Shown: in pieces, positions 22,804 through 23,652 of the stretch
Layout of the letters: each line of letters starts with the position of its first letter
Position numbering within the stretch: the stretch's first letter is position 1
Origin: Escherichia phage Elenatom
Reading direction: 5' to 3' (one strand)
Sequence record: PP925844.1
Length of the DNA: 64,000 nucleotides
Position numbers and translations under genes: made by a program
The notes under the pieces: generated by a model
Told to the model about the DNA's origin: nothing
What the model saw: only the letters and a program-made list of their open reading frames with translations
Database searches by the model: none

Positions 22804-23652
22804 TTAATCAACTGCTATCGGATGAATAGCATTAAACTTATGAAACGCTTCTGATTTTTCTTTGCGCGAAACACACATGCGAAGAACCTTTAATGGCTCG
22901 TCTTCTTCACCCAACGATTTTCTCTTTTCAATATTCGATGTTTTCCAACGAGCTTGCTCTGGAAACTCTCTGTTGATTTGCTCAAGAGCTCTATTATGTT
23001 TTGAATTACTACGAATTGAACTACATCCGCCAGGAGCTTGTGCTTTTCCAGATACAACCAGATATTTGAACAGGGCCAAATGCGGATAACCTTGATTAAT
23101 TAAATTGAGAAATGCATACATATCTTCGCACAAATCAATTTTTCCATACCCAATTTGTTCTGTCGTAAGTTTTCCAAGGTCATACCATGTATTCGTGAAT
23201 CCATATGAATTTTCACGATAATTACCCCAAGATGAAGTAATTTTAAAAATTGGTAGACGAGCATGACCGTGATAATACCCGCAATCCATGGCATCTTCAA
23301 CATATTGAATCAATTCATAGAACTGTTCACGAGTTAATTGATTAATTTTATCTACGCGCCGTTTATCGTCTCTCTTTCGTATTGAACTCATACGGATAGT
23401 AGTATCATCGTCAATCATCCAGATTCGTTGACCTGCATACATATCAGTAATTGCTTTACGAGTACCGGCAATTCCATTAACATCATCAGGAATAGTTACA
23501 ATTTTAGCTCTAGACCCATAGGCATCATAATAAGCTTTTTCTTCGTGTTCACGCACTACAATATGGGGTTCATAATCAGTCGGAAACATATCAAGGGCAG
23601 AAACTGCCCCTACACGTTGATAGCTTGGAATTACGAATTGAATCATTTCCAC
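22804..23652 (-). CDS. glycosyltransferase in the beta-glucosyltransferase position
   Basis: 282 aa; IDDD (DxD-like) motif; sits between uvsX and gene 42; too short for T4 beta-gt as recalled. Confidence 0.5.
   Translation of the reverse strand: MEMIQFVIPSYQRVGAVSALDMFPTDYEPHIVVREHEEKAYYDAYGSRAKIVTIPDDVNGIAGTRKAITDMYAGQRIWMIDDDTTIRMSSIRKRDDKRRVDKINQLTREQFYELIQYVEDAMDCGYYHGHARLPIFKITSSWGNYRENSYGFTNTWYDLGKLTTEQIGYGKIDLCEDMYAFLNLINQGYPHLALFKYLVVSGKAQAPGGCSSIRSNSKHNRALEQINREFPEQARWKTSNIEKRKSLGEEDEPLKVLRMCVSRKEKSEAFHKFNAIHPIAVD

What the first reader, a model, noticed from the sequence alone, without database searches (positions are those of the whole stretch)
22804..23652. Short glucosyltransferase in the beta-gt position, with a separate alpha-gt
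The ORF between uvsX and gene 42 is 282 aa with a DxD-like IDDD motif, noticeably shorter than the ~351 aa I recall for T4 beta-glucosyltransferase. It may be the T2/T6-type enzyme that adds a second glucose to glucosyl-HMC. Together with alpha-gt (35258-36460) this would predict T2/T6-type DNA glucosylation and restriction sensitivity.
Basis: inference. Interest (0 to 1): 0.35.

Follow-up and report, generated by a model that had tools for sequence, protein, structure and literature searches.

The report
T2/T6-type second DNA glucosyltransferase gene
This is the well-known T2/T6-type phage enzyme that adds a second glucose to already glucosylated phage DNA; it is the usual gene at this position in T4-like coliphages, so the finding is correct but ordinary.

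Summary
The ORF is real and sits between uvsX and gene 42. Its likely start is the ATG at 23646, giving 280 aa rather than 282. The protein is 98% identical to the phage T2 beta-glucosyl-HMC-alpha-glucosyltransferase (ba-gt; Pfam TAGT, PF20691) and 97% identical to the T6 one. It shows no similarity to T4 beta-gt, which belongs to another family (PF09198), and no T4-type beta-gt is present in the window.

An intact alpha-gt (92% identical to T4) and dCMP hydroxymethylase (97% identical to T4) are also present. The expected DNA is therefore T2/T6-type: free hmC, alpha-glucosyl-hmC and gentiobiosyl-hmC, with no beta-glucosyl-hmC.

This arrangement is the norm. In the phage collection 478 records carry this gene and only 29 carry T4 beta-gt. 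Gene function was shown by T6 deletion mutants (PMC11078745).

The fraction of diglucosylated bases cannot be read from the sequence, since it is 5% in T2 and about 70% in T6. The window pairs a ba-gt allele typical of phages measured at about 40% gentiobiosyl with an alpha-gt allele identical to one from a phage measured at about 67%.

The finding is already known and of low interest.

The parts
22804..23646 (-). ba-gt (g-gt/TAGT) coding sequence: beta-glucosyl-HMC-alpha-glucosyltransferase, 280 aa from the ATG. The maximal ORF from the GTG at 23652 would be 282 aa.
   Evidence: ORF listing. Identity is 98% to T2 and 97% to T6. Pfam PF20691 scores 39.9 bits against a cut-off of 27.5. PHROG 842 E=2.5e-89. 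Orthologues are annotated from this ATG.
23643..23646 (-). ATGA overlap of the gene 42 stop codon (TGA) with the ba-gt start codon (ATG). It is preceded by GGTGAG. The arrangement suggests translational coupling (inferred).
   Evidence: Sequence read...ggtgagtggaaATGAttcaattc...
23404..23415 (-). I78-D79-D80-D81, the DxD-type acidic motif at the end of a predicted beta-strand (74-79). It is the presumed site that binds divalent metal and the UDP-glucose diphosphate in a GT-A fold transferase.
   Evidence: Sequence. D79, D80 and D81 are invariant in alignment A2. The strand assignment comes from the AF2 model.
23344..23382 (-). Codons 89-101, a short divergent patch (I89, K95, R97, I101; V50 lies outside it). 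It separates two natural ba-gt alleles. The window carries the Geo/EL/BGP allele.
   Evidence: Variable-site table. DNA differences cluster at nt 267-312 when compared with T2, T6, Solly, CP, Some and EH2, but not with Geo, EL or BGP.
35258..36460 (-). alpha-gt: DNA alpha-glucosyltransferase, 400 aa. It makes alpha-glucosyl-hmC, the acceptor for ba-gt.
   Evidence: Pfam PF11440 E=1.8e-237. Identity is 92% to T4 alpha-gt, 400/400 to Solly and 398/400 to T2.
23643..24383 (-). Gene 42: dCMP hydroxymethylase, 246 aa, the source of hmC.
   Evidence: Identity is 238/245 to T4 gp42.
15070..15588 (-). Gene 56: dCTPase/dUTPase. It excludes unmodified C from phage DNA and is part of the hmC pathway.
   Evidence: ORF. 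The orthologous position is annotated as nucleoside triphosphate pyrophosphohydrolase in Pinarejo and as dCTP pyrophosphatase in Geo, EL and BGP. I ran no separate identity test.

Best explanation
The gene encodes the T2/T6-type beta-glucosyl-HMC-alpha-glucosyltransferase (ba-gt, also called g-gt or TAGT).

Proposed pathway:
1. gp42 makes hm-dCMP and hmC is incorporated during replication (established knowledge).
2. alpha-gt puts an alpha-linked glucose on roughly three quarters of the hmC residues (published for T2, T6 and T4 delta-b-gt).
3. This enzyme, a GT-A-fold transferase with a DDD metal/UDP-sugar binding motif, takes UDP-glucose and adds a second glucose in beta-1,6 linkage to the first. 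The product is gentiobiosyl-hmC.

Because the locus holds this gene instead of T4 beta-gt, the hmC residues that alpha-gt cannot reach stay bare, and no beta-glucosyl-hmC is made.

What is shown here: gene identity, intactness, synteny, presence of the partner genes and absence of beta-gt in the window. What is taken from papers: the gene-function link and the DNA composition of close relatives. What is inferred: that this particular allele is active, and the proportion of gentiobiosyl-hmC. My guess for that proportion is roughly 40-70% of cytosines, not the 5% seen in T2.
For: - Identity to the T2 and T6 proteins is 98% and 97% over the full length.
- PHROG 842 'beta-glucosyl-HMC-alpha-glucosyltransferase' E=2.5e-89. 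Pfam TAGT is above the gathering score.
- The gene has the same position between uvsX and gene 42 as in T2, T6 and 10 other phages examined.
- The ORF is intact. This contrasts with one T6 record carrying an amber codon at codon 10.
- The DDD motif is invariant among homologues.
- In the AF2 model the N-terminal half has pLDDT 80-93. The best PDB fold matches are GT-A glycosyltransferases: AvpGT, K4CP, TarS and GpgS.
- alpha-gt and gp42 are present and intact.
- No T4-type beta-gt, and no 55%-identical beta-gt variant, is present in the window.
- Genetics: T6 delta-ba-gt DNA carries only alpha-glucosyl-hmC (PMC11078745; 10.64898/2026.02.25.707755).
- Chemistry: ten Tequatroviruses with alpha-gt plus TAGT contain hmC, alpha-glucosyl-hmC and gentiobiosyl-hmC, and no beta-glucosyl-hmC (PMC13390438).
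- The window protein lacks T2's private substitutions R11H and P251S. R11 is invariant in alignment A2.
Against: - Nothing contradicts the identity of the gene.
- The quantitative part is weak. T2 carries a 98%-identical protein yet has only about 5% gentiobiosyl-hmC.
- The window's alpha-gt is 398/400 identical to T2's.
- The link between ba-gt allele and measured sugar ratio rests on three closely related phages (Geo, EL, BGP).
- My structure model is only moderately confident (mean pLDDT 69). The fold matches cover only about 95 residues at E=5e-4 to 1e-2.
- Only 64 kb of the genome is visible, so a beta-gt elsewhere in the genome is not formally excluded. Published surveys found only 1 of 753 phages with all three transferase types (PMC13216743).
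Confidence: 0.92

Rival explanations
1. The gene is present but contributes little, as in T2. The DNA would be mostly mono-alpha-glucosylated (about 70%), with only a few percent gentiobiosyl-hmC and about 25% bare hmC.
For: T2 has a 273/280-identical ba-gt in the same position, yet only about 5% gentiobiosyl-hmC (PMC11078745, PMC6024577). The window's alpha-gt is 398/400 identical to T2's.
Against: The window protein has neither of T2's two private changes, R11H and P251S, which are found in both T2 records. R11 is invariant in homologues down to 32% identity. The window's alpha-gt is also 400/400 identical to that of Solly, a phage measured at about two-thirds gentiobiosyl (PMC13390438), so the alpha-gt allele does not track the low phenotype. 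All ten non-T2 Tequatroviruses measured in PMC13390438 had 40% or more gentiobiosyl.
Confidence: 0.12
2. The ORF is a shortened or degraded T4-type beta-glucosyltransferase that puts a single beta-glucose directly on hmC.
For: Only the position: in T4 the same locus holds beta-gt.
Against: There is no detectable sequence similarity (BLASTP E=4). The Pfam families differ, PF20691 against PF09198. The fold class also differs: GT-A-like here, GT-B for T4 beta-gt (PMC13216743).
Confidence: 0.01
3. The enzyme has drifted to another donor sugar or acceptor, as some distant TAGT relatives in phages without alpha-gt or beta-gt presumably have.
For: The TAGT family is broad, and 288 of 753 phages have solitary TAGT homologues of unknown specificity (PMC13216743). 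The Pfam match itself is modest (E=5.7e-10).
Against: Identity to the genetically validated T6 gene is 97%, and it is 278/280 to the proteins of Geo, EL and BGP, whose DNA was shown to carry gentiobiosyl-hmC (PMC13390438). The alpha-gt partner is present.
Confidence: 0.02

Closest known systems
Phage T2 / T6 beta-glucosyl-HMC-alpha-glucosyltransferase (ba-gt, g-gt; Pfam PF20691 TAGT; PHROG 842)
   Same: Identity is 273/280 to T2 and 271/280 to T6. Length, DDD motif and position between uvsX and gene 42 are the same, including the ATGA overlap with gene 42. The partner alpha-gt is the same.
   Different: There are five conservative substitutions (V50, I89, K95, R97, I101), mostly in one patch at codons 89-101. 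These are shared with phages Geo, EL and BGP. The window protein lacks T2's R11H/P251S and T6's Y40N/D55G/R106H.
ba-gt of Escherichia phages vB_Eco_Geo / EL / BGP (Durham collection) and phage Pinarejo
   Same: Identity is 278/280 to Geo, EL and BGP and 279/280 to Pinarejo. DNA identity to Pinarejo is 99.9%. Geo, EL and BGP DNA was measured at about 1:2:2 hmC: alpha-glucosyl-hmC: gentiobiosyl-hmC (PMC13390438).
   Different: The window's alpha-gt is the other natural allele: 400/400 to Solly and 398/400 to T2, but only about 92% to Geo, EL and BGP. The restriction-enzyme-like gene next to dam in Geo, EL and BGP is absent.
Phage T4 beta-glucosyltransferase (PF09198, GT-B fold)
   Same: It occupies the same genome slot next to gene 42, uses UDP-glucose, makes a beta-glycosidic bond and acts on phage DNA after replication.
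   Different: It is an unrelated protein: no sequence similarity, 351 aa against 280 aa, GT-B fold against GT-A fold. The acceptor is hmC itself rather than alpha-glucosyl-hmC (PMC13216743). T4 also has the segA homing endonuclease next to it, which is absent here.
GT-A fold, GT2-like cellular glycosyltransferases (e.g. TarS, chondroitin polymerase K4CP)
   Same: They share the predicted N-terminal nucleotide-sugar binding domain and an acidic DxD-type motif after a beta-strand. T6 TAGT clusters as sister to GT2 in PMC13216743.
   Different: Identity is only 13-21% over about 95-130 aligned residues. The acceptor is DNA-borne glucose, not a polysaccharide or teichoic acid.

Membership tests
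T2/T6 ba-gt (beta-glucosyl-HMC-alpha-glucosyltransferase; PF20691 TAGT) | Full-length sequence homology to the T2/T6 gene product | tested here: met
   Identity is 98% to T2 and 97% to T6 over 280 aa. PHROG 842 E=2.5e-89. PF20691 scores 39.9 bits against a cut-off of 27.5.
T2/T6 ba-gt (beta-glucosyl-HMC-alpha-glucosyltransferase; PF20691 TAGT) | Located between uvsX and gene 42, in place of T4 beta-gt | tested here: met
T2/T6 ba-gt (beta-glucosyl-HMC-alpha-glucosyltransferase; PF20691 TAGT) | Genome also supplies the acceptor: hmC pathway (gp42) plus alpha-glucosyltransferase | tested here: met
   gp42 is 97% identical to T4. alpha-gt matches PF11440 at E=1.8e-237 and is 92% identical to T4.
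T2/T6 ba-gt (beta-glucosyl-HMC-alpha-glucosyltransferase; PF20691 TAGT) | Conserved acidic DDD (DxD-type) motif | tested here: met
   D79, D80 and D81 are invariant in 8 homologues of 32-78% identity.
T2/T6 ba-gt (beta-glucosyl-HMC-alpha-glucosyltransferase; PF20691 TAGT) | GT-A fold | tested here: inconclusive
T2/T6 ba-gt (beta-glucosyl-HMC-alpha-glucosyltransferase; PF20691 TAGT) | Transfers glucose from UDP-glucose in beta-1,6 linkage to alpha-glucosyl-hmC, so that gentiobiosyl-hmC is present in virion DNA | not testable with these tools
   This needs an enzyme assay or LC-MS of nucleosides. It is shown for T6 by deletion (PMC11078745) and for ten relatives by LC-MS (PMC13390438).
T4 beta-glucosyltransferase (PF09198) | Sequence homology to T4 beta-gt / PF09198 domain | tested here: not met
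   BLASTP E=4. The window protein has no PF09198 hit, whereas T4 beta-gt hits it at 9.4e-98. tblastn of T4 beta-gt on the whole window finds nothing below E=1.
T4 alpha-glucosyltransferase (PF11440) - for the partner ORF 35258-36460 | Full-length homology to T4 alpha-gt | tested here: met
   Identity is 366/400 to T4. PF11440 E=1.8e-237.

The most novel reading that the evidence does not exclude
The window is a natural recombinant. It pairs the ba-gt allele of phages with intermediate diglucosylation (patch V50/I89/K95/R97/I101, as in Geo, EL and BGP at about 40% gentiobiosyl) with the alpha-gt allele of a high-diglucosylation phage (identical to Solly).

If the short patch next to the DDD motif, or in T2 the R11H change at an otherwise invariant arginine, sets how much of the DNA is diglucosylated, a few residues of this enzyme would explain the 60-year-old T2 (5%) versus T6 (72%) difference. 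DNA sugar content, and hence sensitivity to Brig1, Brig3/BapA and GmrSD-type defences, would then be predictable from sequence.
Probability: 0.15. Interest if true: 0.35.

Novelty: already known. Interest (0 to 1): 0.08.

Why it matters
The sugar pattern on hmC decides which host defences can attack a T-even phage:
- Bare hmC (about 25% in T2/T6-type DNA) is a target for McrBC-type enzymes and for the Brig3 glycosylase.
- alpha-glucosyl-hmC is excised by Brig1.
- Gentiobiosyl-hmC resists Brig1 in vitro and the BapA deglucosylase.
- GmrSD/BrxU-type enzymes cut all of these forms.

(Sources: PMC11078745, PMC13216743, PMC13390438, 10.64898/2026.02.25.707755.)

Knowing that this phage has alpha-gt plus ba-gt and no beta-gt is therefore useful for annotation and for predicting host range. 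It adds nothing new to biology, because this is the commonest genotype in the genus.

Tried and rejected
1. **Truncated T4 beta-gt.** Rejected: there is no similarity.

2. **The one-residue deletion in the DDD motif of T6 record AP018814 (IDD instead of IDDD) as the cause of T6's high diglucosylation.** Rejected: the other T6 record (MH550421) and all four 'high' Durham phages examined have IDDD.

3. **The alpha-gt allele as the determinant of the extent of diglucosylation.** Rejected as a simple rule. The T2-type allele occurs in T2 (low) and in Solly and CP (high). The T4/T6-type allele occurs in T6 (high) and in Geo, EL and BGP (intermediate).

4. **PDB sequence search.** No solved relative was found; best E=1.6, and the hit is spurious.

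5. **Promoter and terminator scan around the gene.** Counts are no better than in shuffled sequence.

6. **Fetching QOTSP and NR1 at the expected coordinates.** This failed because those records are circularly permuted, so they were left out of the allele table.

7. **Scanning the rest of the nearest relative's genome (Pinarejo) for a beta-gt.** I did not do this. Pinarejo does not appear among the 60 best tblastn hits of T4 beta-gt, but 66 weaker hits were not listed.

Full report
**Observation**

The window has an ORF at 22804..23652 on the minus strand, 282 aa from a GTG. Downstream lies uvsX (21545..22726). Upstream lies gene 42, dCMP hydroxymethylase (23643..24383), which is 238/245 identical to T4 gp42.

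The sequence at the junction reads ggtgagtggaaATGAttcaattc. The ATG at 23646 therefore overlaps the gene 42 TGA stop and is preceded by a Shine-Dalgarno-like GGTGAG. Orthologues in Pinarejo, T2 (two records), Solly, Geo, EL, BGP, CP, Some and EH2 are all annotated from this ATG as 843-nt genes.

The IDDD motif is real: residues 78-81, at 23404..23415. The alpha-gt ORF at 35258..36460 is also real.

**Identity**

- Pfam places the protein in PF20691, TET-associated glycosyltransferase (TAGT), at E=5.7e-10 and 39.9 bits against a cut-off of 27.5.
- PHROGs places it in phrog_842, 'beta-glucosyl-HMC-alpha-glucosyltransferase', at E=2.5e-89.
- It is 273/280 identical to the T2 protein and 271/280 identical to the T6 protein.
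- The nearest record is Escherichia phage Pinarejo: 99.9% DNA identity with one nucleotide difference.

Against T4 beta-gt (351 aa) there is no alignment (BLASTP E=4). T4 beta-gt belongs to a different Pfam family, PF09198. tblastn of T4 beta-gt and of T4 segA against the whole 64-kb window finds nothing. The window therefore has neither T4 beta-gt, nor the 55%-identical beta-gt variant that some coliphages carry at this locus, nor the segA homing endonuclease that T4 has beside it.

**How common it is**

In the 50,697-record phage collection:
- 478 records carry this gene, 474 of them at 90% DNA identity or more;
- 29 records carry T4 beta-gt, mostly T4 stocks and a few close relatives;
- 503 records carry alpha-gt.

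This matches PMC13216743, which reports that nearly all such phages pair alpha-GT or beta-GT with a TAGT, and that T4 is unique in RefSeq in having alpha-GT plus beta-GT. T4 is the exception and the window is the rule.

**Mechanism**

An alignment with seven homologues of 32-78% identity shows several invariant features:
- D79-D80-D81;
- an N-terminal IPSYxR motif (P7, S8, Y9, R11);
- D175;
- a GGxSxxR motif (G206, G207, S209, R212).

An AlphaFold2 model built on this shallow alignment has mean pLDDT 69 and pTM 0.68. The N-terminal 125 residues score 80-93, and the DDD motif sits at the end of strand 74-79.

Foldseek against the PDB returns GT-A fold glycosyltransferases as the best matches: AvpGT, chondroitin polymerase K4CP, TarS and glucosyl-3-phosphoglycerate synthase. 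Related nucleotidyltransferases also appear. The matches cover only about 95 residues at E=5e-4 to 1e-2. No sequence relative has a solved structure.

The working model has three steps:
1. gp42 supplies hm-dCMP.
2. alpha-gt glucosylates about 75% of hmC in alpha linkage.
3. This enzyme uses UDP-glucose, bound through the DDD motif and a divalent cation, to add a beta-1,6 glucose to the first sugar, giving gentiobiosyl-hmC.

The gene-function link is published. T6 delta-ba-gt carries only alpha-glucosyl-hmC and becomes more sensitive to Brig1 (PMC11078745). T6 delta-g-gt DNA becomes a substrate for the BapA deglucosylase (bioRxiv 10.64898/2026.02.25.707755). From my own knowledge, not checked here, the T2 and T6 genes were cloned and sequenced by Winkler and Rueger in 1993.

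**What DNA is predicted**

PMC13390438 measured nucleosides in ten Tequatroviruses that, like the window, have alpha-gt plus TAGT at the beta-gt position. All contained 5-hmdC, alpha-glucosyl-hmC and gentiobiosyl-hmC, and none contained beta-glucosyl-hmC.
- EL, BGP and Geo had about 1:2:2 hmC : alpha-glucosyl-hmC : gentiobiosyl-hmC.
- Solly, TB37, QOTSP, NR1, CP, Some and EH2 had about one third hmC and two thirds gentiobiosyl-hmC.
- T2 has 5% gentiobiosyl-hmC and T6 has 72% (PMC11078745, PMC6024577).

I compared the window's two transferases with those of seven of these ten phages plus T2 and T6.

| Gene | Window allele | Phages sharing it | Phages with the other allele |
|---|---|---|---|
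| ba-gt | V50, I89, K95, R97, I101 | Geo, EL, BGP (278/280 identical), intermediate group | Solly, CP, Some, EH2, T6 and T2: I, M, R, C, V |
| alpha-gt | 400/400 to Solly, 399/400 to CP, 398/400 to T2 | Solly, CP (high); T2 (low) | T4, T6, Geo, EL, BGP: only about 92% identical |

For ba-gt, the DNA differences cluster at nt 267-312.

The window is therefore a mosaic of the two natural allele pairs, and the alpha-gt allele does not track the phenotype. T2 has two private changes in both of its records, R11H and P251S, and R11 is invariant in the homologue alignment. The window has R11 and P251.

My inference is that the phage is not T2-like. It probably has a large gentiobiosyl fraction, roughly 40-70%. 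This is a correlation from a few related phages, not a demonstrated rule.

**Defence consequences (from papers)**

- About 25% bare hmC makes T2/T6-type phages targets of the 5hmC glycosylase Brig3 (10.64898/2026.02.25.707755).
- alpha-glucosyl-hmC is excised by Brig1, whereas T6 DNA rich in gentiobiosyl-hmC is not degraded in vitro (PMC11078745).
- GmrSD and BrxU act on mono- and diglucosylated forms (PMC13216743, PMC13390438).

**Verdict**

The feature is a textbook gene in its usual place in an ordinary Tequatrovirus genome, so it is already known and of low interest. The only mildly open question it touches is what sets the extent of diglucosylation. For that question this genome offers an informative natural allele combination.

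Noticed in passing
window 15624-16426 (minus strand); poly-A run at about 15744-15750: The dam DNA adenine methyltransferase ORF is 229 aa instead of 259 aa. A run of seven A's (TCTAAAAAAATATAATG) shifts the frame; with six A's the T4-like C-terminus (…[32 protein letters not shown]) would be read. The last 30 codons appear as a separate 37-aa ORF in another frame. Phage Pinarejo is annotated with the same split (693-nt methyltransferase plus a 114-nt ORF). This could be a real frameshift or pseudogene, a slippage-prone homopolymer, or a shared sequencing error.
   Followed up: partly
window 35258-36460 (alpha-gt): Two natural alpha-gt alleles differ at about 32-34 of 400 residues. The window, T2, Solly and CP share one. 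T4, T6, Geo, EL and BGP share the other. The window combines the first with the Geo-type ba-gt allele, so the two transferase genes have reassorted by recombination.
   Followed up: yes
window about 36166-36172 (nt 289-295 of the alpha-gt CDS) and nt 892-897: alpha-gt contains an A7 run and an A6 run, as in T2. T4, T6, Geo, EL and BGP have A6 at the first site and no run at the second. A preprint reports slippage-prone repeats in T2 agt acting as contingency loci for escape from TgvAB (10.1101/2025.10.21.683753). I did not check whether it is this run.
   Followed up: partly
L005 (T6 MH550421) codon 10 of ba-gt; L004 (T6 AP018814) codon 79: The two public T6 genome records differ in this gene. 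One has an amber codon (TAG) at codon 10 and is annotated from Met20. The other has an in-frame loss of one Asp of the DDD motif. Laboratory T6 stocks may not all have the same ba-gt.
   Followed up: partly
L003 and L023 (T2 records), ba-gt codons 11 and 251: Both T2 records carry R11H and P251S, which none of the other ten phages compared have. R11 lies in the N-terminal IPSYxR motif and is invariant in homologues down to 32% identity. This is a candidate reason for T2's low (5%) gentiobiosylation. It is untested.
   Followed up: partly
window 22727-22803 (spacer between ba-gt and uvsX): T4 has the segA homing endonuclease gene between uvsX and beta-gt. Here there is only a 77-nt spacer. By eye it holds a MotA-box-like TAATGCCTAAA (22796-22806, minus strand), a 12-nt gap and then TATAAT (22780-22785), the layout of a T4 middle promoter upstream of uvsX.
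   Followed up: no
window 24391-24540 (minus strand): A 49-aa very hydrophobic ORF lies between gene 42 and imm. It is annotated as 'phage protein' in Geo, EL, BGP, CP, Some, EH2 and Pinarejo, and is 84% identical to the Geo copy. T4, T2 and T6 have no annotated gene there; they have a gap of about 150 nt.
   Followed up: partly
phage records MZ234027, MZ234034 and others (hits H123-H134): A third occupant of this locus exists. About a dozen Escherichia Tequatroviruses (G3F6, CHD2BS1, PM136, UPWr_E2, KMB26, G2540) have a beta-gt homologue only 55% identical to T4's at the same map position. Several of these phages have an alpha-gt 99.7% identical to the window's.
   Followed up: no
window 16449-16511: Only a 21-aa remnant matches the 186-aa 'restriction-enzyme-like' gene that sits next to dam in Geo, EL and BGP.
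   Followed up: no
window 23592-23612 (minus strand): A 9-bp-stem hairpin (GGGGCAG-TTT-CTGCCCT) lies inside codons 12-18 of ba-gt and was flagged as terminator-like. The count of such sites in the region is not above the shuffled expectation.
   Followed up: no
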